Translations under genes and position numbers: made by a program | Notes under the pieces: generated by a model | The model's database searches: none | The model's input: only the letters and a program-made list of their open reading frames with translations | Told to the model about the DNA's origin: nothing | Shown here: positions 1 to 12,936 of the stretch, piece by piece | How positions within the stretch are numbered: position 1 is the first letter of the stretch | Layout of the letters: the number at the start of each line of letters is the position of its first letter | Origin: a virus | Virus record (IMG/VR): IMGVR_UViG_3300045988_139237 | Reading direction: 5' to 3' (one strand) | DNA length: 12,936 nucleotides

Positions 1-55
1 ACACGGACACATGTGTATGTCTCCGACGGACACATGTGTATGTCTCCGACGGACA
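1..55. repeat. Left inverted terminal repeat (55 bp)
   Basis: Positions 1-55 are the exact reverse complement of 12882-12936; identity breaks at 56/12881. Composition is AC plus 2.3 copies of a 23-bp unit. Confidence 0.95.
3..55. repeat. 23-bp tandem direct repeat x2.3 inside the ITR (mirrored at 12882-12934)
   Basis: The unit ACGGACACATGTGTATGTCTCCG occurs at 3-25 and 26-48 (identical), with a partial copy ACGGACA at 49-55. Each unit contains the perfect 10-bp palindrome ACACATGTGT (7-16, 30-39). Confidence 0.95.
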
Positions 56-1190: not shown

Positions 1191-1540
1191 GAAAATTATC
1201 ATTGCGATTAGATATGAGAATATACAATTGGGCAAAAGAATATGGAACAACAGTGAGCGAATACCTCGAACATGCTGTGTACTCGGCTTTGGAGTTCGGT
1301 GGCACTGGATTTCAATTCGAGCTAGTGCGAGCCGTGCCGAAGTACGATACAAGCGTGTATCTCACAGATAGGACTTTTAAAGAAGTGAAAAAGTTAGCAA
1401 AACAGAACAACCTCAGCAAAGCACAGATACTGAATCGTTCCGCGATAATGTTTCACGTGAAACATATTCACGATGTAGAACGAGAGGAAATGGAGAGTGA
1501 GCAGTGGCATGATGACAGATTATGCAAAACGCCGTACTAA
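1187..1540 (+). CDS. Tandem ribbon-helix-helix (CopG/Arc/MetJ-type) DNA-binding protein, putative transcription regulator (117 aa)
   Basis: TTG 1187 overlaps the upstream stop (TTGA). AGGAG lies at 1171-1175 in the context aggagttgaaaaaacaTTG, which mirrors aggagttgaaaaacATG at gene 4060. Two strand-helix-helix units are present: KLSLRLD-MRIYNWAKEYG-TTVSEYLEHAVYSAL and SVYLTD-RTFKEVKKLAKQNN-LSKAQILNRSAIMF. Confidence 0.6.
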   Translation: MRKLSLRLDMRIYNWAKEYGTTVSEYLEHAVYSALEFGGTGFQFELVRAVPKYDTSVYLTDRTFKEVKKLAKQNNLSKAQILNRSAIMFHVKHIHDVEREEMESEQWHDDRLCKTPY

Positions 1541-1967
1541 AGTTATAAGAAAGCTTAAAGTCTTAGCGCAAAACAAAAATTTCGGAATGGGTGCAAAGAG
1601 TAATATACAATACATGCTACAGCAATTACCACCAGAAAGTCAGATAAAAACCGCCCGCCAGAAACGAGGCGCAATGAAAGCACTAGAACAAGCTGAGAAA
1701 TCTGATTTATACAGTGTATCAGGGCAAAGGAGAATTGCCAGACGAAAAATGGCAAAACTTGAAAAGCTGGGGATTAAATTTAAGACTTATAAAGAGCTCA
1801 ATGAGTTTGGTGAGTTCATGGAATCTGTTCGCAATTATTCATTGGGGCGAGTATACGACAGCACAAAGGCGCTAGAGTTGTTTATTGATAGAGGTGGAAA
1901 ATCTGGTGATGAATTACTCAATCAGTACGGGGAATGGCAAAAAGCAAAGAGAAGAATTGATACGTAG
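1509..1967 (+). CDS. Candidate terminal (priming) protein, basic, 152 aa (start uncertain: GTG 1497 or ATG 1509/1512)
   Basis: It lies immediately upstream of, and overlaps, the protein-primed polymerase gene, which is the position of the TP gene in phi29, Cp-1, PRD1 and Bam35. It is Lys/Arg-rich. The N-terminal DYAKRRTKVIRKLKV...NFG loosely recalls the phi29 p3 N-terminus EYARLVKNTKAKIARTKKKYG (from memory, unverified). Confidence 0.4.
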   Translation: MMTDYAKRRTKVIRKLKVLAQNKNFGMGAKSNIQYMLQQLPPESQIKTARQKRGAMKALEQAEKSDLYSVSGQRRIARRKMAKLEKLGIKFKTYKELNEFGEFMESVRNYSLGRVYDSTKALELFIDRGGKSGDELLNQYGEWQKAKRRIDT

Positions 1968-3996
1968 AGTACAACAGATATATAGAACACCTAACATGAG
2001 AGGAAAACAACGCTTTGCAAAACAGTCATACCGAAATTGTATATGCGCTTTTGATATCGAAACTACACGACTTCCTGAAATCGAACAAAGCATCATGTAT
2101 TTATGGCAATTTGCGGTATTACTTGATGATAACGAAATAATATGTGTGTACGGGAGAAACTGGAACGAACTTGAAGAATTGTTTACTGGAATCGAAGATG
2201 AACACCTTATCACAATGATTTTCGTTCACAATCTGTCATACGAATTTCAGTTTCTGCGCTCACATATAGGAATAAAGCCGGATGAGGTGTTCTCTCTCAA
2301 ACCTCGAAAAATACTCAGAATCAGGGCAGGAAATCATATGCAAGGAAATTTGGAGTTTCGATGCTCATACATGCAGACACATAAGAGCCTTGACAAGTTC
2401 CTGAGCGATAGTGGGGTTGAGAACCAGAAGTTGAAAGATTTTGATTATGACAAGCGTAGATATCCGTGGACAGAATTAACACCCAAAGAAATTGAGTACG
2501 GATGCAACGATGTTATCGGATTATTACAGGCAATGCATAAACGATTGGTGGATAATAACGATACTCTATACACTCTACCATTAACATCTACAGGTTACGT
2601 CAGGCGAGAAGCAAGGCAAGCTATGAAACAGTACAATTATAAAAAACTGCACAGCATGATGTGCGATGCAAGCTTATACACACTTCTTAGAGAAGAATTC
2701 AGGGGTGGCGATACTCACGCAAATAGATATCATGTAGGGAAAATACTCAATAAGGTTGCTTCTTTTGACAGGGCAAGCTCTTACCCAGACGTTATGCTCA
2801 ATTGTGAATTTCCAATGACAAAATTTGTGCGACAGGGAAATTGCGGTATAGAGGATATTGACAGGTGGACAAAATTCCACAAGGCTTATGTGGGGCGATT
2901 CCATTTCCGAAACATCAGGCAAAAAGATGTGTATTACGGTGCGCCATATCTTACAAAAGACAAGGGCTATTACATAAGCACAGAATCAGTTTGGGACAAT
3001 GGTCGTCTACTCTCAGCCGATGAATACTCGTGTACACTAAACGATATTGATTTTGGAATTGTAAAAGGGGAATACGTTTGGGACAGCGTGGAACTTACAG
3101 ATTTTTATACAGCCGGGTATGGTTATCTTCCCGAACCATTGCGAAATCTGGTGAAACGCTTATTTACAGATAAAACGTCTTTAAAAGGTGTTGAGGGTAA
3201 GGAAATTGAGTACGCTCTGTCAAAAGAATTGATAAACTCACTATACGGGATGTCCGCGCAAAACCCTGTCAAGCCAGATATCATCTACAGCAACACCGAA
3301 AAACCATTCTCGGTTAAGGATGGGGACACAGAGGAAAAGTTAATGAAGTATAACAAAAGGGCATTTATGTTATACGCATGGGGTTGTTGGGTGACTGCTC
3401 ACGCAAGACAAAGGCTCAAGCTTGCCGTGAACATAGCTGACGAGGATTTCGTTTACTGCGACACAGATTCGTGTAAAATACTGATTACAGAAAGATATAC
3501 CGAAATCCAAAAGGGGTTTGACGAGCTGAATAATCGGTTAAAGAACGATTCTTCAGAAAATGGTGGTCATGCCACAGACCCAAAAGGCGTGGAACATTAT
3601 CTAGGCGTATATGAGTATGAGGGCACATCAGACCGATTTATCACATTAGGTGCGAAAAAATACGCCCAGGAAAAAAACGGCAAGCTCGAAATCACAATAG
3701 CAGGGGTGAACAAGAAAAAAGGTGCGGAAGAATTGCGGAAAATGGGCGGTTTGGAAGCTCTGAAAATCGGAACCACATTCAGGGCTGCAGGTGGCACAGA
3801 ATCTGTCTATAATGATACAGATTATGGTTATTACAACCCCGACCCAGACAACCCGGATAAAAGCGTGTGCATTACTAGAAACGTTGTCATACGCCCGTCT
3901 GAATATACTTTGGGACTTACTCTCGAATACCTGAACGTTCTTAACAGCGTTGACTTGTGGCATGATTTTCTAAAAAATACCAAAGAAAAGTCTTGA
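1909..3996 (+). CDS. Protein-primed family-B DNA polymerase (phi29 gp2-like), about 695 aa (start uncertain: TTG 1885, ATG 1909 or ATG 1996)
   Basis: Motifs read in order: ExoI FDIETT, ExoII HNLSYE, ExoIII YGCNDVIGL, motif A DRASSYPDVM, motif B KELINSLYG, motif C YCDTDS, and KxY (GAKKYAQ). These match phi29 DxE, HNLKFD, YxxxD, DxxSLYP, KxxxNSLYG, YCDTDS and KTY. Confidence 0.9.
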   Translation: MNYSISTGNGKKQREELIRRVQQIYRTPNMRGKQRFAKQSYRNCICAFDIETTRLPEIEQSIMYLWQFAVLLDDNEIICVYGRNWNELEELFTGIEDEHLITMIFVHNLSYEFQFLRSHIGIKPDEVFSLKPRKILRIRAGNHMQGNLEFRCSYMQTHKSLDKFLSDSGVENQKLKDFDYDKRRYPWTELTPKEIEYGCNDVIGLLQAMHKRLVDNNDTLYTLPLTSTGYVRREARQAMKQYNYKKLHSMMCDASLYTLLREEFRGGDTHANRYHVGKILNKVASFDRASSYPDVMLNCEFPMTKFVRQGNCGIEDIDRWTKFHKAYVGRFHFRNIRQKDVYYGAPYLTKDKGYYISTESVWDNGRLLSADEYSCTLNDIDFGIVKGEYVWDSVELTDFYTAGYGYLPEPLRNLVKRLFTDKTSLKGVEGKEIEYALSKELINSLYGMSAQNPVKPDIIYSNTEKPFSVKDGDTEEKLMKYNKRAFMLYAWGCWVTAHARQRLKLAVNIADEDFVYCDTDSCKILITERYTEIQKGFDELNNRLKNDSSENGGHATDPKGVEHYLGVYEYEGTSDRFITLGAKKYAQEKNGKLEITIAGVNKKKGAEELRKMGGLEALKIGTTFRAAGGTESVYNDTDYGYYNPDPDNPDKSVCITRNVVIRPSEYTLGLTLEYLNVLNSVDLWHDFLKNTKEKS

Positions 3997-4281: not shown

Positions 4282-4368
4282 GAGCACATTAAGAAACAAA
4301 CAGGTCGCAATCTGAAACAACTCATAGCTGTGGATAAAACAGCATAAAAGAAAAAAGGAGAAAACATC

Positions 4369-4725
4369 ATGGAAATTATTAAAACAAACATTCAGGAAAA
4401 CGAGTACACAATGGAGTTAATGTATGCATTGCTCGAGGACGAGAACAGAATCCGTCTTTCCGACATTGAAGGAACAACTGTGGAGTTTGACCACTATGCT
4501 ATTGTTGAAGATGAAAACGCAAAGGGCGAAGTTATGAAAACTCTGTCAATCGAGGATGCGGAAACACACAGCGTTTATGTGACGACTTCTACCTCATTCA
4601 TTCAGTCTTTCGAGCGCATTATCGCAATGGCTGAAAAATGTGGAACGGACTTCCGAAAAGTATCTGTATTTTCCAAAAAATCACAGCGTGGAAGAAACTT
4701 CTTAGTAGCAGGTTATGTGATATGA
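4369..4725 (+). CDS. Hypothetical acidic protein (118 aa)
   Basis: AAGGAG (4355-4360) lies 8 nt before ATG 4369. The N-terminal two-thirds is strongly acidic (about 21 D/E overall) and the C-terminus is basic. The stop overlaps the ATPase start. Confidence 0.7.
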   Translation: MEIIKTNIQENEYTMELMYALLEDENRIRLSDIEGTTVEFDHYAIVEDENAKGEVMKTLSIEDAETHSVYVTTSTSFIQSFERIIAMAEKCGTDFRKVSVFSKKSQRGRNFLVAGYVI

Positions 4726-5777
4726 AGAAACCCGAACTGTACAACAGTAACGGTTATGTGAATATAAGGGGCATCTTGGAAACAGGGTGCCCTTTTATCT
4801 TTATATGGGGCGGTAGAGGAACGGGAAAAACTTATGGTATTTTGAAACACGCTGTGGAAAACAATAAAAAATTCATTTACCTACGCACCCGACAAACTCA
4901 GATAGATATGATACGCACACCACAATTTAATCCGTTTAAGCAATACAATGCCGACTGTAACAGACGTATCACTCCGTCACCTATCAATAAAATGTATTCA
5001 GGTTTTTATGATACAGAGTTTGACGAGAAAACAAAAAAATATACAAACTCAGGGGAACCACTAGGCTACTCAGCAGCACTCGGCACTATATCCAATTTAC
5101 GAGGTTTCGGGGCAGCGGACGTTGAGTTGATGTTTTATGACGAGTTCATCCCGGAAAAGACAGAACCACAGTTAAAAAACGCCACAATCGCTCTCTTAAA
5201 TGGATATGAAACCATAAACAGAAATCGAGAGCTTATGGGAGATAAGCCTTTGCAGCTCATATGTGCATCAAACAGCGAAAACGCAAACTGCGACATATTC
5301 GCAAAACTAGGTTTAATCCGTAAAGTCACTGATATGCACAAAACAGGGCAGGAATTTAGCTATTTGCCTGATAGAGGTATTATCCTCGTCAATCTTGCCA
5401 ACTCCCCGATTTCACAGGCGAAATCTGAAACGGCTGTGTACAGAATGATTGGTAAAGACAGTGATTTTTACAAGATGTCAATTCAGAATGATTTCTATAC
5501 TGAGGACTATTCGGATATTAAATCCGAACCCATAAATGAGTACGTCCCCATTGTGACAGTTGGAGAAATAACCATATACACGCACAAAAGCAAGGAAAAA
5601 CTGTATATTACACAGCACCTACAAGGCTCACCCCAGATTACCTATTCCACGTCAACAAGAGATTTAACAGCTTTCCGGCACAAGTTCATATGGGTCTGGG
5701 GGATGTACCTTGACGGGTTAGTGAGTTTTTCTGATATCGAATCAAAATATTTACTTGACAATTATTTCAAGATGTGA
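4722..5777 (+). CDS. DNA encapsidation (packaging) ATPase, phi29 gp16-like (351 aa)
   Basis: ATG 4722 overlaps the upstream stop (ATGA). Walker A is WGGRGTGKTYG and Walker B is LMFYDEF. The blocks FIYLRTRQ, DEFIPEK and NRNRE...LICASNSEN parallel remembered phi29 gp16 FIYVRRYK, DEFIREK and FRNRE...CICLSNAVS. Confidence 0.9.
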   Translation: MKKPELYNSNGYVNIRGILETGCPFIFIWGGRGTGKTYGILKHAVENNKKFIYLRTRQTQIDMIRTPQFNPFKQYNADCNRRITPSPINKMYSGFYDTEFDEKTKKYTNSGEPLGYSAALGTISNLRGFGAADVELMFYDEFIPEKTEPQLKNATIALLNGYETINRNRELMGDKPLQLICASNSENANCDIFAKLGLIRKVTDMHKTGQEFSYLPDRGIILVNLANSPISQAKSETAVYRMIGKDSDFYKMSIQNDFYTEDYSDIKSEPINEYVPIVTVGEITIYTHKSKEKLYITQHLQGSPQITYSTSTRDLTAFRHKFIWVWGMYLDGLVSFSDIESKYLLDNYFKM

Positions 5778-5783
5778 TACTTT
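5755..5783 (+). promoter_or_regulatory. P3, candidate promoter for the structural/lysis operon
   Basis: TTGACA (5755-5760), 17-bp spacer, TACTTT (5778-5783), with TG at 5775-5776 (TGaTACTTT). The spacing and TGn are identical to P1 and P2, but the -10 hexamer is weak (T1, A2 and T6 only). The TG is part of the ATPase stop codon. Confidence 0.5.
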
Positions 5784-5791
5784 ATCATTGT

Positions 5792-5878
5792 AGGGGGAGT
5801 GGTACAAAACCGACGGGCGGAACCCGTGTACATGAGTTTGGTTGACTCACAGCACTTCCCCTCAATTCAAAAGAGGGG
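5792..5878 (+). ncRNA. Structured RNA element (multi-helix 5' leader or candidate small RNA) between the ATPase and holin-like genes
   Basis: A 10-bp outer stem (5792-5801 with 5853-5862, one G-U) encloses two hairpins. The first spans 5802-5831: GTAC/GTAC plus ACGGG/CCCGT with a 5-nt loop. The second spans 5834-5848: GAGT/ACTC with a 7-nt loop. An alternative 6-bp helix CCCCTC (5858-5863) / GAGGGG (5873-5878) occludes the SD of the 5887 gene. Confidence 0.45.
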
Positions 5879-5886
5879 GTGACAAT

Positions 5887-6081
5887 ATGGAATGGATTCA
5901 GGCAGTAAGCCAGTTATTCAGCTCTTTAGGTGTACCTGTAGCGTGCCTTGCAGTAACCTTTTATTTATGGTACAGGGAGACTGAAAACCATAAAGAAGAA
6001 ATACACAACCTCTCAGAGGTTCTGAACAACAACACGATGGCAATTCAGAAACTTGCAGACAAACTGGACGTAAAGGAGTGA
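5887..6081 (+). CDS. Holin-like small membrane protein (BhlA/UviB-like architecture), 64 aa
   Basis: GAGGGGG (5873-5879) lies 7 nt before ATG 5887; the ORF-track start at 5842 lacks an SD. The N-terminal TM segment LFSSLGVPVACLAVTFYLWY is followed by a charged helical tail (ETENHKEEIHNLSEVL...KLADKLD). This resembles the remembered BhlA layout. Confidence 0.5.
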   Translation: MEWIQAVSQLFSSLGVPVACLAVTFYLWYRETENHKEEIHNLSEVLNNNTMAIQKLADKLDVKE

Positions 6082-6085
6082 TACC

Positions 6086-6388
6086 ATGCCATTAGGCGCA
6101 AAAATTCTACTAGACCCCGATATGGAAGAACAGTACGGAATGATTAACATTATACCAGACTGCGATGTATATGGTGAATACAAGATAAGCACAAAGAGTT
6201 CCCCACTGATGTTGCGTGATAAGCCAGATACAAACGCAGATATCATTGTAGAGATGCCAAAAGGACGTACTATTTTTTGTTACGGGTTCACAGATATCAC
6301 TATGAACTGGTATCTTTGCGAATACTCCGACAGCGGAAAGATTTATACAGGTTTTTGTAATAAAAAATATTTAATAAAAAAGGAGTGA
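6086..6388 (+). CDS. Free-standing SH3b-like (bacterial SH3, cell-wall-binding type) domain protein, 100 aa
   Basis: AAGGAG (6073-6078) lies 7 nt before ATG 6086. The C-terminal 60 aa, LMLRDKPDTNADIIVEMPKGRTIFCYG...NWYLCEY..SGKIYTGFCNKKYL, follows the SH3b pattern (LNVRsGPs...vig.l.kGt.v.v....gW.kv.y.GktGyv...yl). Confidence 0.5.
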   Translation: MPLGAKILLDPDMEEQYGMINIIPDCDVYGEYKISTKSSPLMLRDKPDTNADIIVEMPKGRTIFCYGFTDITMNWYLCEYSDSGKIYTGFCNKKYLIKKE

Positions 6389-6392
6389 CAAC

Positions 6393-6749
6393 ATGAAAAT
6401 CGAGGATATCATCGCCCTTGCAGGGGCAGGATTTAGCAAACAGGACATCATCAAGATTGCAGGTACAGGGTCAATTCCGACTCCGACTCCGGCTCCGACT
6501 CCGGCTCCGATTCTGACACCGACACCGGCATCAGCACCAGCACCAGCATCAGCACCAGCATCAGTTCCGGCACAGGTTCCGGGTAATACTCAGGACGTTT
6601 TTAATCAGCGTATGGGAGTTCTTGACAATCGGTTGGATGAAATTACTAGATTGATTCAGGCGGGTAACCTGAGTAACTCTCAGATTCCAGAACCACCGAC
6701 AACGAACGACATGTTAGCATCAATTATTAATCCACCAGTAAAGGAGTGA
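6393..6749 (+). CDS. Putative scaffolding protein (by position) with a Pro/Thr/Ala linker, 118 aa
   Basis: AAGGAG (6380-6385) precedes ATG 6393. It lies immediately upstream of the capsid gene, like phi29 gp7. It has an N-terminal helix-hairpin-like segment, 18 [P/S/L/Q]-[T/A/I/V/G] dipeptides, and a helical C-terminus (VLDNRLDEITRLIQ). Confidence 0.4.
   Translation: MKIEDIIALAGAGFSKQDIIKIAGTGSIPTPTPAPTPAPILTPTPASAPAPASAPASVPAQVPGNTQDVFNQRMGVLDNRLDEITRLIQAGNLSNSQIPEPPTTNDMLASIINPPVKE
6477..6584 (+). repeat. Degenerate hexanucleotide array (18 units, CCGACT/CCGGCT/CCAGCA/TCAGCA types), in frame within CDS 6393-6749
   Basis: Tiling in 6-nt steps from 6477 gives ccgact ccgact ccggct ccgact ccggct ccgatt ctgaca ccgaca ccggca tcagca ccagca ccagca tcagca ccagca tcagtt ccggca caggtt ccgggt. 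Confidence 0.9.
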
Positions 6750-6753
6750 TATT

Positions 6754-7950
6754 ATGGGTTCATCAAATGAATTAACGACGGGCGCACCGAACGTAGCCAA
6801 TTTTAGCTCAGCTGCTATTCTGAATGAAATTGTAAGTCAGGCGACAGGCAACAAATCAATTAGCGCGATTTCGACTGGCAGTTTTACTTCGGTTGCTACA
6901 ACTGCACTCGGGTTGGGAATCGACCCGCTGTTAAACGCAATTTCTCAGGTTCTCAGTAGAACCATTTTTTCTATCCGACCATATTCACGAAAGTTTAAGG
7001 GGCTGTATCAGGATAACATGACTTTTGGAAACCATGTGCGGAAACTTAACATCGCAGATTCTGATTGGGATAAAGATGATAGATACGACCTGGAAGACGG
7101 ACAGAGCGTGGACGACCAGGCAGTGGCTATTCCAAAAATACTACAGACAAATTTCTATGGACAGAACGTTTACCAGAGACAGATTACACTGTTTAGAGAT
7201 CAGTTAAACGTTGCTTTACAAAATGAACAGGAATTTCAGAGGTTTGTTACTATGATTATGACAAATGCGTCTGATTTGATTGAACAGGCACATGAAGCAA
7301 CAGCAAGAATGACGCTTGCGAACTTTATCGGGGGTAAAGTTATAGGGGACACAGACAATGTTATTCATCTTGTGACAAAATACAATGAAGTAGCAGGAAC
7401 TACACTGACAACTGACACGGTAAAACAGCCTGAAAATTTTGTGCCGTTCATGAAGTGGGTGACAGGTTACATCAAAACAGTGTCAGACTGGATGTCTGAG
7501 AGAACACAAAAGTTTCACATTAACGTGACAGGAAAAGAGATTTCCAGACATACGCCATACAACAAACAGAAACTGTATCTGTATTCTGAGGAACTGAACA
7601 ACATTGATTCTACTGTTATGTCCTCTATCTTTAACGACAGCTATCTGAAAATGGCTGACCACGAGAAAGTTGGATTTTGGCAGAACATTGACACCCCCGA
7701 CGGTATCCATGTAAAAGCATCTTATATGGATAACCTCGGAAATATTGAATCTGATTCTGAGGGTACGGCTACATCGAATATTTTCGGCGTGTTATTCGAC
7801 GAGGAAGCAGTTGGTATCACAACTTACGGCGAGTGGTCTGCACCTTCACCGTTTAATGCACGGGGTGGGTACAGTAACATTTTCTGGCATTTCAATGACA
7901 GATATTATAATGATTTCACAGAAAATGGAGTTGTGTTCTTATTAGATTAA
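6754..7950 (+). CDS. Major capsid protein, phi29 gp8-like core (398 aa)
   Basis: AAGGAG (6741-6746) precedes ATG 6754. The size and the position after the scaffold gene fit. The blocks LSRTIFSIRPYSRKFKG and YQRQITLFRDQL...FQRFV parallel remembered phi29 gp8 VDRIGLVVIRQ...KKFKKG and YHQTIQDDSL...FESFV. There is no C-terminal Ig-like extension. Confidence 0.7.
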   Translation: MGSSNELTTGAPNVANFSSAAILNEIVSQATGNKSISAISTGSFTSVATTALGLGIDPLLNAISQVLSRTIFSIRPYSRKFKGLYQDNMTFGNHVRKLNIADSDWDKDDRYDLEDGQSVDDQAVAIPKILQTNFYGQNVYQRQITLFRDQLNVALQNEQEFQRFVTMIMTNASDLIEQAHEATARMTLANFIGGKVIGDTDNVIHLVTKYNEVAGTTLTTDTVKQPENFVPFMKWVTGYIKTVSDWMSERTQKFHINVTGKEISRHTPYNKQKLYLYSEELNNIDSTVMSSIFNDSYLKMADHEKVGFWQNIDTPDGIHVKASYMDNLGNIESDSEGTATSNIFGVLFDEEAVGITTYGEWSAPSPFNARGGYSNIFWHFNDRYYNDFTENGVVFLLD

Positions 7951-9342: not shown

Positions 9343-9979
9343 AAACATCAGAAATGACAACTCAGCATTATTAATAGGTCTTTCCATTGGTGGCTCTGGG
9401 GGTAGCGGTAGTGAAATCCCCCTGCCGTCTGGAAAATGGAATGTGATAGTTACAGACAAAGAGAACGGATATTTTACACTAGAACAAATGAAGCAAAATG
9501 CAGCCAATATTAACAACTACTTTAAGGAAAGAGGATGGAGTGCGTCAGCCAGAATGGCACTTTTGGGGAACATGGAAAAAGAAAGTACCATGAATCCCGG
9601 ATTAATTGAAGTTGGTGGCGGTACTACTTCGGCAGGCCCGGGAAGAGGTCTTGTACAGTGGACACCCGGTCAGAATCTTCTCACAGTTTTAGACGTGCTG
9701 TACAGTGGGCATGATGATTGGTATGATGGGGGAAAACAGTGTGCTGTTTTGTTTGCTGAATATCAGGAAAGTGTGGGGGATGCACATAGAGGTATTGAAC
9801 CGCAGTGGTATCAGACATCTAGTTATCCAATAACATGGAGACAATGGGCAACTGGAAACTATGATTTAAAATATCTAACAAATGCGTTCATGTATAATTA
9901 TCTCAGACCTGGCGACCTGAATCAGCCTGATAGATATGTAAAAGCGCAATACTGGAGTTCAATATTTATAAAGGGGTGA
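9335..9979 (+). CDS. Tail-associated peptidoglycan hydrolase, phi29 gp13 N-terminal lysozyme-like domain only (214 aa)
   Basis: GGGGGTG (9322-9328) precedes ATG 9335. LLGNMEKESTMNPGL...GRGLVQWTPGQN and YLRPGDLNQPDRYVKAQYW match remembered gp13 MLGNMQSESTINPGL...GFGLVQWTPASN and YERPANPNQPERGDQAEYW. There is no C-terminal M23 peptidase domain. Confidence 0.85.
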   Translation: MHRNIRNDNSALLIGLSIGGSGGSGSEIPLPSGKWNVIVTDKENGYFTLEQMKQNAANINNYFKERGWSASARMALLGNMEKESTMNPGLIEVGGGTTSAGPGRGLVQWTPGQNLLTVLDVLYSGHDDWYDGGKQCAVLFAEYQESVGDAHRGIEPQWYQTSSYPITWRQWATGNYDLKYLTNAFMYNYLRPGDLNQPDRYVKAQYWSSIFIKG

Positions 9980-9980
9980 T

Positions 9981-10901
9981 ATGATGCCATACAGTTATGA
10001 AATGGTAAACTTGTTTAACTCGTCTTACAGTCCGTCAACTCTTCACACAAAAAACACTCAAATGTTCAATTTTTTCAAGAAGTATTTACTCGAGAAAGTT
10101 ATATCTGTGTTTGAATTTGAGTTACCTGAAATGTGGGATAAGAATTATTTTCTGTACTCGTTGTTTTTAAATGGCTATCTGGCAATTGTGAATACGGACA
10201 AGTTTGGTGTTATATGTCAGCATTGTGAATTGAGAGGGTATAATATCTATTACAATCCCACACATGCCATAATTGTCAATCCTCTATTGACTGGAATTTT
10301 AGAACCTAAAATTGGCACTCAGTGTTCTCTTATCAGATTACAGCCAAATTATAGTGGTGTTTCTGATATCGTAAATTACTATGCAGATAATATGGCTATG
10401 ACTGCTGAAACGTGTGAAATGAATATCATGAATAGCAAGCTATCATTCCTTTTCGCAGTGAGAGGAAAAAGCCAGGCTGAATCAATGAAGAAAATTCTTG
10501 ACCAGGTGATGAGGGGTGAGCTAGGGGTTTTCTATGATGAAAAACTGAAAATGGGAAATGACAATATCCCATTAGATTTTTTTAACAATGACTTAAAAAA
10601 GAATTTTATTGCCCCGGAATTACAGGACACGTTAAGACGGTGGGAAGAAATGTTCTGTAATGAGGTTGGTATCCCGAACATAAGAAGCGACAAGAAAGAA
10701 CGTATGATAGTGGATGAAGTGAACAGCAACAATATTGAATGTTTCACAAAAGCGGAACTGTGGCTTGAAACACTAAAAGAGGGGGTTGAGCAAACCAACA
10801 AAATGTTCAATCTTGACCTCGGCGTTAAATTGCGTCATAATGAAGGGGGTGAGAATAATGCCCGGGGAACTTTACTTGCAGGGTCTGCTAGCATGGAATG
10901 A
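9981..10901 (+). CDS. Portal (head-tail connector / upper collar) protein, phi29 gp10-like (306 aa)
   Basis: AAGGGGTGA (9971-9979) precedes ATG 9981. WEEMFCNEVGIPNIRSDKKERMIVDEVNSNN...NLDLGVKLR parallels remembered gp10 [30 protein letters not shown]...GLNVKVKFR. The size is nearly identical to gp10 (309 aa). Confidence 0.85.
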   Translation: MMPYSYEMVNLFNSSYSPSTLHTKNTQMFNFFKKYLLEKVISVFEFELPEMWDKNYFLYSLFLNGYLAIVNTDKFGVICQHCELRGYNIYYNPTHAIIVNPLLTGILEPKIGTQCSLIRLQPNYSGVSDIVNYYADNMAMTAETCEMNIMNSKLSFLFAVRGKSQAESMKKILDQVMRGELGVFYDEKLKMGNDNIPLDFFNNDLKKNFIAPELQDTLRRWEEMFCNEVGIPNIRSDKKERMIVDEVNSNNIECFTKAELWLETLKEGVEQTNKMFNLDLGVKLRHNEGGENNARGTLLAGSASME

Positions 10902-12881: not shown

Positions 12882-12936
12882 TGTCCGTCGGAGACATACA
12901 CATGTGTCCGTCGGAGACATACACATGTGTCCGTGT
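12882..12936. repeat. Right inverted terminal repeat (55 bp)
   Basis: Exact reverse complement of 1-55. Confidence 0.95.

What the first reader, a model, noticed from the sequence alone, without database searches (positions are those of the whole stretch)
5755..5889. Multi-helix RNA at the predicted 5' end of the P3 transcript, with an alternative fold that hides the holin SD
The 109-nt gap between the ATPase and the holin-like gene is the longest non-coding stretch in this compact genome, and it is conspicuously G/C-rich. P3 should start transcription at about 5790, so the element would begin at the very 5' end of the RNA. Fold A has three parts. A 10-bp stem pairs AGGGGGAGUG (5792-5801) with CACUUCCCCU (5853-5862). 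It closes a junction bearing hairpin 5802-5831 (GUAC/GUAC plus ACGGG-CGGAA-CCCGU) and hairpin 5834-5848 (GAGU-UUGGUUG-ACUC). Fold B pairs CCCCUC (5858-5863) with GAGGGG (5873-5878), the SD of the holin-like gene, and is mutually exclusive with the outer stem of fold A. There are three possible readings. (i) It is a translational switch that sets holin dosage and lysis timing. (ii) It is a 5'-terminal stabiliser stem-loop for the late mRNA, as known for Bacillus and phage SP82 leaders. (iii) It is a packaging-RNA-like molecule. For the third reading, phi29 gp16-type motors use a pRNA with a three-way junction, and the element lies immediately next to the gp16-like gene. Against the third reading, there is no terminator after the element. 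The portal N-terminus (MMPYSYEMVNLF) also lacks the basic RKR patch that binds pRNA in phi29.
Basis: partly seen in the sequence, partly recalled or inferred. Interest (0 to 1): 0.7.

Follow-up and report, generated by a model that had tools for sequence, protein, structure and literature searches.

The report
Miniature prohead-RNA-like element in gut phage
A 71-base RNA at the start of this small gut phage's late genes folds into a conserved three-armed shape that copies the layout of the phi29 "packaging RNA", so it may be the first such RNA recognised outside the Bacillus phages, although it could instead be a structured mRNA leader.

Summary
A conserved sigma-70-type promoter lies directly upstream. 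The element recurs once per genome in over 100 related ~13-kb phi29-like gut phage genomes.

On an alignment made without reference to structure, 24 of 27 pairs show compensatory changes. The 5'-side bulge of the first arm (AACC, 5808-5811) is complementary to the loop of the second arm (GGUU, 5840-5843). This complementarity covaries through 28 or more different sequence pairs (z = 13.6).

The topology matches the phi29 pRNA core: an A helix formed by the two RNA ends, a C helix, a one-sided CE bulge abutting an E hairpin, and a D hairpin whose loop pairs with the bulge. In the window the kissing letters are the same as in phi29. No Rfam family matches, including RF00044.

Best reading (0.55): a miniature pRNA-type packaging RNA made as the 5' end of the late transcript. 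Main rival (0.3): a cis-acting late-operon leader with an intramolecular pseudoknot.

The holin SD switch (fold B) is a minor conformer and shows no compensatory support in relatives.

The parts
5755..5783 (+). Promoter P3: -35 TTGACA (5755-5760), 17-nt spacer with extended -10 TG (5775-5776), -10 TACTTT (5778-5783). The inferred start is about 5790-5792. It overlaps the ATPase stop codon (5775-5777).
   Evidence: Read from the sequence. TTGACA and TG are unchanged in all 27 close relatives. The same arrangement (TTGACA, 16-18 nt, TAnnnT, often with TG) ends 5-11 nt before the element in distant lineages. The scan tool did not list it because the -10 matches only 3 of 6 positions. The transcription start is inferred, not measured.
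5792..5801 (+). A helix, 5' strand (AGGGGGAGUG). It pairs with 5853-5862.
   Evidence: Minimum-free-energy structure and centroid; pairing probability 0.99. All pairs of this helix show compensatory changes. L024 and L023 have a matched one-base shortening on both strands.
5802..5805 (+). C helix, 5' strand (GUAC). It pairs with 5828-5831.
   Evidence: 90-96% paired, with compensatory changes in the two or three inner pairs.
5806..5812 (+). One-sided bulge AAAACCG (CE-loop equivalent). AACC (5808-5811) is complementary to GGUU (5840-5843), and G5812 can wobble with U5839. It directly abuts the E helix.
   Evidence: Bulge-to-loop complementarity averages 4.4 bp for cognate partners against 2.2 bp for non-cognate partners. 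There are 28 distinct cores, z = 13.6, and 86.6% of cells are paired on an alignment not fitted to any structure.
5813..5827 (+). E hairpin: ACGGG (5813-5817), loop CGGAA (5818-5822), CCCGU (5823-5827).
   Evidence: All pairs are compensatory and 97-99% paired. The loop is CGGAA, or CAGAA, CUGAA, CGAAA, UCGAA or YGGGA, in almost all lineages.
5828..5831 (+). C helix, 3' strand (GUAC).
5833..5849 (+). D hairpin: UGAGUU (5833-5838), loop UGGUU (5839-5843), GACUCA (5844-5849). The closing U5838-G5844 pair is a wobble, so the loop is effectively UUGGUUG.
   Evidence: Pair U5837-A5845 becomes U-G and then C-G in close relatives. The four core pairs are 96.7% paired with compensatory changes. The loop letters are identical to the phi29 pRNA D loop.
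5853..5862 (+). A helix, 3' strand (CACUUCCCCU). It resembles an anti-SD sequence and could alternatively pair with the SD region (fold B).
5863..5889 (+). Single-stranded linker CAAUUCAAAA, SD GAGGGGGUG (5873-5881) and the ATG (5887) of the first late gene, a 64-aa membrane protein. No terminator is present.
   Evidence: The SD is 67-94% unpaired in the ensemble.

Best explanation
Window 5792-5862 most likely encodes a miniature prohead (packaging) RNA, the functional and probably evolutionary counterpart of the phi29 pRNA core.

What is shown:
- The RNA is a three-way junction whose A helix is formed by the two ends of the element.
- The first arm is a C helix, a one-sided 7-nt bulge and an E hairpin with a conserved CGGAA loop. 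The second arm is a D hairpin.
- The 3' nucleotides of the bulge are Watson-Crick complementary to the D loop, and this complementarity is kept through many different sequences across the phage family.
- The phage encodes a gp16-type packaging ATPase, a phi29-type connector and a phi29-type capsid protein. It has no other candidate structured RNA.

What is inferred:
- Transcription starts at the first nucleotides of the A helix, from promoter P3.
- Bulge and D loop pair between molecules, hand in hand, to build a ring on the portal vertex of the prohead.
- The E-loop region docks on the prohead, and the A helices carry the ATPase.
- In this phage the RNA is made as the 5' end of the late transcript and is either cut off in the AU-rich linker 5863-5872 or used while still attached. 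Some relatives instead end it with a hairpin plus U-run, as phi29 does.
For: 1. The structure is real. RNAalifold on a structure-agnostic alignment of 23 lineages gives the same junction, with 21 of 22 pairs compensatory. 90% of cells are paired, against 57% in shuffles and at most 43% when slid. A covariance model finds one copy per genome: 51 hits in 88 sources, with the window at 83.9 bits and E = 1.4e-18, and 31 further hits among 64 new loci. A descriptor search finds about 20 more.

2. The bulge and D loop covary. There are 28 distinct cores (AACC/GGUU, GGAC/GUCC, GUACA/UGUAC, GGGUA/UACCC, AAUCA/UGAUU, AAAAGGAA/UUCCUUUU and others). Cognate partners average 4.4 bp against 2.2 bp for non-cognate partners, z = 13.6, permutation p <= 5e-6. 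The covariance model did not model this helix, yet it is 86.8% paired on that alignment.

3. The topology equals the Rfam structure line for phi29 pRNA. Both have an A helix made from the ends, a C helix, a 5'-side bulge whose last nucleotides (AACC) abut the E helix, an E hairpin, and a D hairpin with loop UGGUU. The window has the same AACC/GGUU letters and the same UUGGUUG loop.

4. The packaging proteins are phi29-type:
   - PF05894, 2.7e-12
   - phi29 gp16 structure 7jqq, 3.7e-6
   - the phi29 connector family
   - the Phi29_MCP family

5. Group C relatives have promoter, element, then a hairpin plus UUUUGUUU, like the 174-nt phi29 pRNA with its terminal hairpin. In groups B and C the widespread palindrome GTTTCACGTGAAAC lies between the RNA and the late genes. 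This suggests the late regulatory site is downstream of the RNA.

6. pRNA sequences are known to share only about 12% similarity while keeping their structure (PMC5066667). Failure of sequence-based detection is therefore expected.
Against: - Rfam RF00044 gives no match even at E <= 10 on a 121-nt stretch, although it scores phi29 at 145 bits. The model built here does not find phi29 pRNA either.
- In every genome examined the element lies at the 5' end of the late operon, usually 16-60 nt before an SD and start codon. This includes the two genomes where the operon is on the other strand from the ATPase gene. That placement is what a cis-acting leader would show. The phi29 pRNA is not placed like this.
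- This window has no terminator, so a discrete RNA requires processing that has not been shown.
- The A helix is only 10 bp and lacks the bulge that binds gp16 in phi29. The connector lacks the N-terminal RKR.
- The C helix is 4 bp, against 9-10 bp in phi29. By my own rough geometry, C + D + kissing helix is about 15 bp per monomer, against about 20 bp in phi29. A pentamer would be too tight around a phi29-sized connector. With such short arms the bulge and D loop could also pair within one molecule.
- There are no expression or binding data.
Confidence: 0.55

Rival explanations
1. The element is a cis-acting leader of the late operon. Bulge and D loop pair within one molecule, giving a compact pseudoknotted three-way junction at the very 5' end of the late mRNA. 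It could protect the mRNA from 5'-end-dependent decay (an elaborate 5' stabiliser). It could instead act on the transcribing polymerase or bind a regulator, as a put- or EAR-like antiterminator or a protein-binding leader.
For: - The element always lies at the head of the late operon, also when that operon is on the other strand from the ATPase gene.
- The helix starts within a few nucleotides of the inferred transcription start.
- An SD and start codon usually follow within 16-60 nt.
- Group C has a hairpin plus U-run after it, which also fits an attenuator or antitermination layout.
- The C helix (3-5 bp, plus a 1-2 nt linker) and the D helix (3-6 bp) have similar lengths. By my own geometric reasoning an intramolecular contact is therefore conceivable.
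Against: - A stabiliser needs only a terminal hairpin. That does not explain a conserved junction, a nearly invariant CGGAA loop and a kissing helix.
- No conserved alternative pairing links the element to the terminator or the SD, so no expression platform is visible.
- The detailed match to the pRNA layout would be a coincidence.
- In groups B and C a regulatory palindrome lies downstream of the element.
- A phage with a gp16-type motor would be left without any pRNA candidate.
Confidence: 0.3
2. The element is a translational switch. The 3' strand of the outer stem alternates between pairing with 5792-5801 (fold A) and with the SD of the gene at 5887 (fold B). This would set the dosage of the small membrane protein and the timing of lysis.
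For: - CCCCUC (5858-5863) can pair with GAGGGG (5873-5878).
- CACUUCC can also pair with GGGGGUG, 7 bp including G-U pairs. Similar complementarity exists in the close relatives and in L105.
Against: - Fold B is 2.9 kcal/mol less stable than fold A. The outer stem is 99% paired and the SD 67-94% unpaired in the ensemble.
- The complementarity is what any C/U-rich strand shows towards an SD.
- The paired changes seen between L105 and L106 are not compensatory.
- Most other lineages (L110, L111, L112 and others) have no such pairing.
- The first downstream gene differs between lineages, being either holin-like or scaffold-like.
- No trigger for switching is apparent.
Confidence: 0.05
3. The fold is a chance fold in a G+C-rich spacer and has no function of its own.
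For: The single-sequence signal is modest: z = -2.73 for the element and -1.28 with the flanks.
Against: There is one copy per genome in over 100 genomes whose ATPases are as little as about 27-30% identical to the window's. Compensatory changes occur in nearly every pair, and no shuffle reaches the observed values.
Confidence: 0.01

Closest known systems
phi29-family prohead RNA (pRNA; Rfam RF00044, 3WJ core)
   Same: - A three-way junction closed by a helix made from the 5' and 3' ends.
- A first arm made of C helix, 5'-side bulge and E hairpin, and a second arm that is the D hairpin.
- The last 4-5 bulge nucleotides abut the E helix and are complementary to the D loop, with lineage-specific covariation.
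- In this window even the letters (AACC/GGUU, loop UUGGUUG) are the same as in phi29.
- It is encoded by a protein-primed podovirus with a gp16-type ATPase and a phi29-type connector and capsid protein.
- The promoter fires at the first nucleotides of the A helix. Some relatives add a terminal hairpin plus U-run.
   Different: - 71 nt, against 117-120 nt for the core.
- C helix of 4 bp against 9-10 bp. A helix of 10 bp without the CCA bulge, against about 25 bp.
- Junction strands of 0, 1 and 3 nt (A to C, C to D, D to A), against 1, 3 and 0 nt. Different helices probably stack.
- No detectable similarity to the covariance model.
- It lies at the head of the late operon and, in this window, is fused to the late mRNA. 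In phi29 the pRNA is a separate early gene at the genome end.
- The connector lacks the N-terminal RKR.
- No experimental evidence for ring formation or prohead binding.
5'-terminal mRNA stabiliser stem-loops of Firmicutes and their phages (ermC, aprE and SP82 leaders; recalled from my own knowledge)
   Same: A stable helix begins within a few nucleotides of the inferred 5' end of an mRNA, followed by an SD.
   Different: Known stabilisers are simple hairpins or ribosome-binding sites. They have no conserved junction, no conserved loop sequence and no tertiary or kissing pairing.
Three-way-junction RNAs with an intramolecular loop-loop contact, and cis-acting processive antiterminator RNAs (purine riboswitch, HK022 put, Bacillus EAR; recalled from my own knowledge)
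   Same: - P1 is formed by the two ends, and two arms of similar length have covarying tertiary pairs.
- The element lies just after a promoter and ahead of an operon.
- Group C has a terminator-like hairpin downstream.
   Different: - No Rfam family matches.
- The contact is bulge-to-loop, not loop-to-loop.
- No alternative pairing with a terminator or SD is conserved.
- No ligand-pocket-like conserved junction. The junction strands are short and variable.
pRNAs proposed for phages outside the phi29 group (Streptococcus Cp-1; archaeal ampullavirus)
   Same: These are claims of pRNA-type RNAs outside the Bacillus phi29 group, mentioned in PMC6266182 and bioRxiv 10.1101/2020.07.06.188573.
   Different: The model built here finds nothing in Cp-1. 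According to PMC6266182 those proposals were not recoverable with covariance models either. As far as I could read, they rest on single sequences rather than covariation.

Membership tests
phi29-type pRNA (Rfam RF00044) | Scores against the curated covariance model | tested here: not met
   No RF00044 match at E <= 10 in the whole window or in 5770-5890. The positive control, phi29, scores 145.4 bits.
phi29-type pRNA (Rfam RF00044) | Three-way junction closed by an A helix made from the 5' and 3' ends, with a C/E arm and a D arm | tested here: met
   Minimum-free-energy structure, RNAalifold consensus and pair counts. Compared with the Rfam structure line.
phi29-type pRNA (Rfam RF00044) | A one-sided (5'-strand) bulge between the C and E helices whose 3' nucleotides are complementary to the D loop, with covariation between lineages | tested here: met
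   28 distinct complementary cores, z = 13.6. 86.6-86.8% of cells are paired on alignments that did not model this helix.
phi29-type pRNA (Rfam RF00044) | The bulge-loop pairing is intermolecular and builds a ring on the prohead | not testable with these tools
   Sequence cannot separate pairing within one molecule from pairing between molecules. My own geometric estimate shows that both are conceivable.
phi29-type pRNA (Rfam RF00044) | Encoded by a phage with a gp16-type ATPase, a phi29-type connector and protein-primed replication | tested here: met
   PF05894, PF05352, PF25622 and PF03175. PDB 7jqq, 7jq6 and 1h5w. 55-nt inverted terminal repeats.
phi29-type pRNA (Rfam RF00044) | A discrete small transcript with its own promoter and terminator | tested here: inconclusive
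   The promoter is present and conserved. The window has no terminator. Group C relatives have a hairpin plus U-run, and L109 has a U-run right after the A helix.
phi29-type pRNA (Rfam RF00044) | A long A helix with a bulge (CCA in phi29) that binds the ATPase, and a basic N-terminus (RKR) on the connector that binds the RNA | tested here: not met
   The A helix is 10 continuous pairs. The connector begins MMPYSYEMVNLF. The phi29 features are taken from PMC5066667 and from my own knowledge.
5'-terminal mRNA stabiliser | A stable helix within a few nucleotides of the mRNA 5' end | tested here: inconclusive
   Met if transcription starts where the promoter geometry predicts. The start was not measured, and the effect on half-life cannot be tested here.
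Riboswitch or attenuator-type leader | A conserved alternative pairing between the sensor domain and a terminator or SD (an expression platform) | tested here: not met
   Fold B is a minor conformer. It is not maintained outside the window's own group, group A. The group C terminator does not overlap the A helix.

The most novel reading that the evidence does not exclude
This would be the smallest natural pRNA known. It is made as the 5' end of the late transcript rather than from its own gene. Its short arms imply a ring of different size or stoichiometry from that of phi29. If true, RNA-dependent DNA packaging would be an ancestral and widespread trait of phi29-like phages, not a peculiarity of Bacillus phages.
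Probability: 0.5. Interest if true: 0.88.

Novelty: new variant of a known kind. Interest (0 to 1): 0.78.

Why it matters
pRNA is the only known RNA component of a viral DNA-packaging motor. The most recent review I found treats it as unique to phi29 and related Bacillus phages (PMC11476376). Whether other phages with gp16-type ATPases use an RNA has stayed open because pRNAs cannot be found by sequence.

This study provides a covariance-supported family of more than 100 members. It has the defining pRNA topology, many natural kissing-loop variants, and a cultured member. That makes the question directly testable with RNase-sensitive packaging, RNA in proheads and two-molecule complementation.

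The family would also supply a minimal 71-nt scaffold for RNA nanotechnology. The changed arm lengths bear on the pentamer-versus-hexamer question.

If the rival is right, this is still a new, widespread and well-supported structured RNA class at the head of phage late operons.

Tried and rejected
- Rfam (all 4227 families, permissive thresholds) on the window and on the short stretch gave nothing relevant.
- Megablast of the whole window against GenBank phages gave no match.
- The model R1, run with filters off, gave no credible hit in the following genomes. The family as modelled is therefore restricted to the ~13-kb gut phage group.
  - phi29
  - Streptococcus phage Cp-1 and Enterococcus phage Athos
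  - Clostridium phages CPS2 and CI644P6 and Eggerthella phage LE1-1
- A home-made descriptor scan of those genomes gave nothing above the score of shuffled sequence, which is about 56.
- Fold B and a second SD pairing (CACUUCC with GGGGGUG) were examined. They are thermodynamically minor and not conserved.
- Adjacency to the gp16 gene as the meaningful association was rejected after L109 and L178.
- I considered a second structured RNA elsewhere in the window and found none. The only other gaps are 1-158 (ITR plus promoter) and 4282-4368, which is AT-rich.
- The first automatic parser mis-parsed group C, which has an extra hairpin. It was re-parsed with a second descriptor.
- The kissing partner in AD70P2 (L114) stays ambiguous: UCC/GGA with one D stem, or UAUCC/GGAUA with another.
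- Literature searches found no prior description of a pRNA in Guelinviridae-like or gut phages. The library does not cover subscription journals.
Full report
**Context.** The window is a complete linear phage genome of 12,936 bp with 55-nt inverted terminal repeats. All genes lie on the + strand. They include:
- a protein-primed type-B DNA polymerase (1885-3996);
- a gp16-type packaging ATPase (about 4722-5777; PF05894);
- a phi29-type major capsid protein (6754-7950);
- a phi29-type connector (9981-10901).

The ATPase matches the phi29 gp16 structure 7jqq and the asccphi28 ATPase 7jq6. The connector matches 7pv4, 7pv2 and phi29 1h5w. GenBank phages hold no close relative. The nearest records are unannotated human-faecal phage contigs. 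The nearest cultured phages are Amedibacillus phages AD70P2 and AD70P3 (Guelinviridae), whose ATPase is about 30% identical.

**The observation.**
- The ATPase gene stops at 5777 and the next gene starts at 5887. This 109-nt gap is the longest internal non-coding stretch.
- The element is 56% G+C against 39.5% for the genome.
- The minimum-free-energy and centroid structure of 5792-5862 is exactly fold A. It has a 10-bp outer stem (5792-5801/5853-5862), GUAC/GUAC (5802-5805/5828-5831), hairpin ACGGG-CGGAA-CCCGU (5813-5827) and hairpin UGAGUU-UGGUU-GACUCA (5833-5849).
- Its energy is -29.5 kcal/mol and z = -2.73 against dinucleotide shuffles. With flanks, z falls to -1.28. The single sequence alone is therefore only suggestive.

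The promoter is TTGACA (5755-5760), 17 nt, TG, TACTTT (5778-5783). The scan tool did not list it. TTGACA and TG are unchanged in all 27 close relatives.

**Relatives.** In this report, group A means the window and its close relatives. Groups B and C are two more distant sets of related genomes whose ATPases are about 50% and about 48-50% identical to the window's.
- A scan of IMG/VR with the ATPase gave 27 close relatives, 92-98% identical in the ATPase and 85-99% identical in the region.
- A scan with an ATPase alignment gave 68 more distant genomes, 46-52% identical.
- GenBank records and a third scan reached ATPases about 27-43% identical.
- Almost all are genomes of about 12-14 kb.

Already within the close set there are textbook compensatory changes:
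- U5837-A5845 goes to U-G and then C-G.
- G-C goes to A-U in the E stem (L024, L026).
- G-C goes to A-U in the outer stem.
- L023 and L024 have a matched one-base shortening of both outer-stem strands.

**Formal tests.** I built a covariance model (R1: 71 positions, 24 pairs).
- It finds exactly one hit per genome. The window scores 83.9 bits, E = 1.4e-18. There are 51 hits in 88 sources (1.03 Mb) and 31 more hits among 64 new loci.
- A descriptor search adds about 20 elements in genomes the model missed.
- On the model alignment, 90.5% of cells are paired against 63% in shuffles. 21 of 24 pairs change on both sides.

That alignment leans towards the structure, so I repeated the test on a plain MAFFT alignment of 23 lineages.
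- RNAalifold predicts the same three-way junction, with 21 of 22 pairs compensatory.
- Counting gives 90.0% paired, against 57.2% in shuffles and at most 43% with slid partners. No shuffle out of 500 reaches the observed value.

The structure is real and under selection.

The 7-nt bulge AAAACCG (5806-5812) contains AACC (5808-5811). This is complementary to GGUU (5840-5843) in the loop of the second hairpin. The complementarity is kept in other lineages with different letters, for example:
- GGAC/GUCC
- GUACA/UGUAC
- GUGC/GCAC
- GGGUA/UACCC
- GUCCA/UGGAC
- GCACA/UGUGC
- AAUCA/UGAUU
- GUCG/CGAC
- AAAAGGAA/UUCCUUUU
- AGUCA/UGACU
- UAGCA/UGCUA
- GCUA/UAGC

The statistics are:
- With 13 lineages, the mean longest complement is 4.6 bp for cognate partners against 2.0 bp for non-cognate partners (p <= 1e-5).
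- With 28 distinct cores it is 4.39 against 2.23, z = 13.6, p <= 5e-6.
- In fixed columns the five pairs are 86.6-86.8% paired, and three or four of them change on both sides. Neither alignment was fitted to this helix.
- The pairing nucleotides always sit at the 3' end of the bulge, directly abutting the E helix. Two or three unpaired nucleotides precede them.

**Comparison with phi29 pRNA.** I fetched phi29 (EU771092). Rfam RF00044 scores its pRNA at 145 bits. The Rfam structure line reads: A helix made from the two ends; C helix; a 9-nt bulge on the 5' strand ending in AACC next to the E helix; E hairpin; UUU; D hairpin with loop UGGUU.

The window element has the same order of parts, the same side and register of the bulge, the same bulge-loop complementarity, and even the same AACC/GGUU letters and UUGGUUG loop.

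[quoted passage not shown] The A helix contacts the ATPase. pRNAs share only about 12% sequence similarity while keeping their structure.

The differences are substantial:
- The element is 71 nt, against 117-120 nt.
- The C helix is 4 bp, against 9-10 bp.
- The A helix is 10 bp and has no bulge.
- The junction strands are 0, 1 and 3 nt, against 1, 3 and 0 nt.
- RF00044 gives no match at E <= 10, and R1 does not find phi29.

It therefore works like a pRNA in layout, but it is not a member of the curated family.

**Genomic setting.**
- In group A and many other lineages the element is followed within 16-60 nt by an SD and the first late gene. That gene is holin-like in some lineages and scaffold-like in others.
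- In L109 and L178 the late operon is on the strand opposite the ATPase gene, and the element has moved with the late operon. The conserved association is therefore with the start of the late operon, not with gp16.
- A near-consensus promoter ends 5-11 nt upstream of the element in most lineages. The RNA would thus begin at the A helix, as phi29 pRNA does.
- In group C the element carries an extra hairpin. It is followed by a 9-bp hairpin plus UUUUGUUU, and then by two copies of the palindrome GTTTCACGTGAAAC ahead of the late genes. This resembles the 174-nt phi29 pRNA with its terminal hairpin.
- The palindrome is multi-copy and widespread in phi29-like gut phages, and occurs also in Athos and CPS2. 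In groups B and C it lies between the RNA and the late genes, which suggests that late regulation acts downstream of the RNA there.
- In L109 and some other lineages the A helix is followed directly by a U-run. The window has neither a terminator nor a U-run.

**Fold B.** The pairing 5858-5863 with 5873-5878 exists. So does a 7-bp pairing of CACUUCC with GGGGGUG. However:
- Forcing fold B costs 2.9 kcal/mol.
- The outer stem is 99% paired, and the SD is 67-94% unpaired in the ensemble.
- The 3' strand of the stem is simply anti-SD-like in group A.
- Other lineages mostly lack any such complementarity, and the paired change between L105 and L106 is not compensatory.

A holin-dosage switch is therefore not supported.

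**Weighing the explanations.**

In favour of a pRNA-type packaging RNA:
- the specific topology, including the covarying bulge-loop helix;
- the phi29-type motor proteins;
- the lack of any other RNA candidate in a very compact genome;
- the stand-alone layout in group C.

Against it:
- the invariable position at the head of the late operon;
- the fusion to the late mRNA in this window;
- the short A and C helices;
- the missing RKR.

My own rough geometry adds a further caution. C + D + kissing helix is about 15 bp per monomer, against about 20 bp in phi29. A pentamer would be too tight around a phi29-sized connector. A stack of the D helix, the bulge-loop (kissing) helix and the E helix within one molecule is sterically conceivable.

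My estimates are:
- pRNA-type RNA: 0.55
- purely cis-acting leader with an intramolecular pseudoknot (stabiliser, antiterminator or protein-binding site): 0.30
- fold B switch: 0.05
- chance: about 0.01
- the remainder unassigned

The two leading readings are not mutually exclusive.

**Novelty.** The 2024 review of phi29-like phages calls pRNA a feature unique to phi29 and related Bacillus phages (PMC11476376). Other papers mention a proposed Cp-1 pRNA that covariance models cannot recover, and pRNA-like RNAs in archaeal ampullaviruses. I found no description of this element, or of any pRNA, in Guelinviridae-like or gut phages, and no Rfam family. The library searched lacks subscription journals, so prior description cannot be fully excluded. 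I rate it a new variant of a known kind. If the cis rival is correct, it is a new structured RNA class.

Noticed in passing
window 1-55 and 12882-12936: Perfect 55-nt inverted terminal repeats, each built from two 23-nt tandem units (ACGGACACATGTGTATGTCTCCG-type). The window is therefore a complete linear genome of the protein-primed type. No terminal-protein gene was identified by name.
   Followed up: partly
window 1451-1462; relatives L042 5762-5775, L058 5512-5525 and about 5546; L118 4328-4366; L116 4789-4802: The palindrome GTTTCACGTGAAAC is multi-copy in many of these phages, and also occurs in Enterococcus phage Athos and Clostridium phage CPS2. It often lies just upstream of late genes or of the ATPase gene, so it is probably the operator of a shared transcription regulator. 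The window has one exact 12-nt core, located in the early region.
   Followed up: partly
L058 5477-5515 and the equivalent in L059-L103, L074, L082: The hairpin that follows the element in group C keeps a conserved 10-nt loop motif GUGUCA(C/A)AGC while its stem sequence changes completely between subgroups. It is therefore probably more than a plain terminator, and may be a protein-binding 'domain II'.
   Followed up: no
window 4766-4795: A strong terminator-like hairpin (13 pairs, then UAUCUUUAUA) lies inside the 5' part of the ATPase gene. It could be an internal attenuator or a chance match.
   Followed up: no
window 6070-6088, 6377-6395, 6738-6756, 9968-9986: A repeated block of about 19 nt, (G/A)UAAAGGAGUGAUAnnAUG, precedes four late genes. 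It is a conserved SD-spacer-start cassette at tightly coupled gene junctions.
   Followed up: no
window 6476-6564: Tandem 6- and 12-nt repeats (TCCGACTCCGGC and CACCAGCATCAG types) lie inside ORF 6393-6749. They encode a low-complexity Ser/Asp/Gly/Thr/Pro-rich stretch in a small late protein, possibly the scaffold.
   Followed up: no
window 4638-4725 versus 4722: The ORF list starts the ATPase at ATG 4638 (379 aa). Homologues in the protein database are 337-355 aa and align from about residue 29. The real start is probably ATG 4722, which overlaps the stop of ORF 4369-4725.
   Followed up: partly
window 5853-5862: In group A the 3' strand of the A helix (CACUUCCCCU) resembles the 3' end of 16S rRNA (the anti-SD). 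The SD region of the next gene resembles the 5' strand (GGGGGUG against GGGGGAGUG). If the 5' strand were removed, the SD could be occluded.
   Followed up: partly
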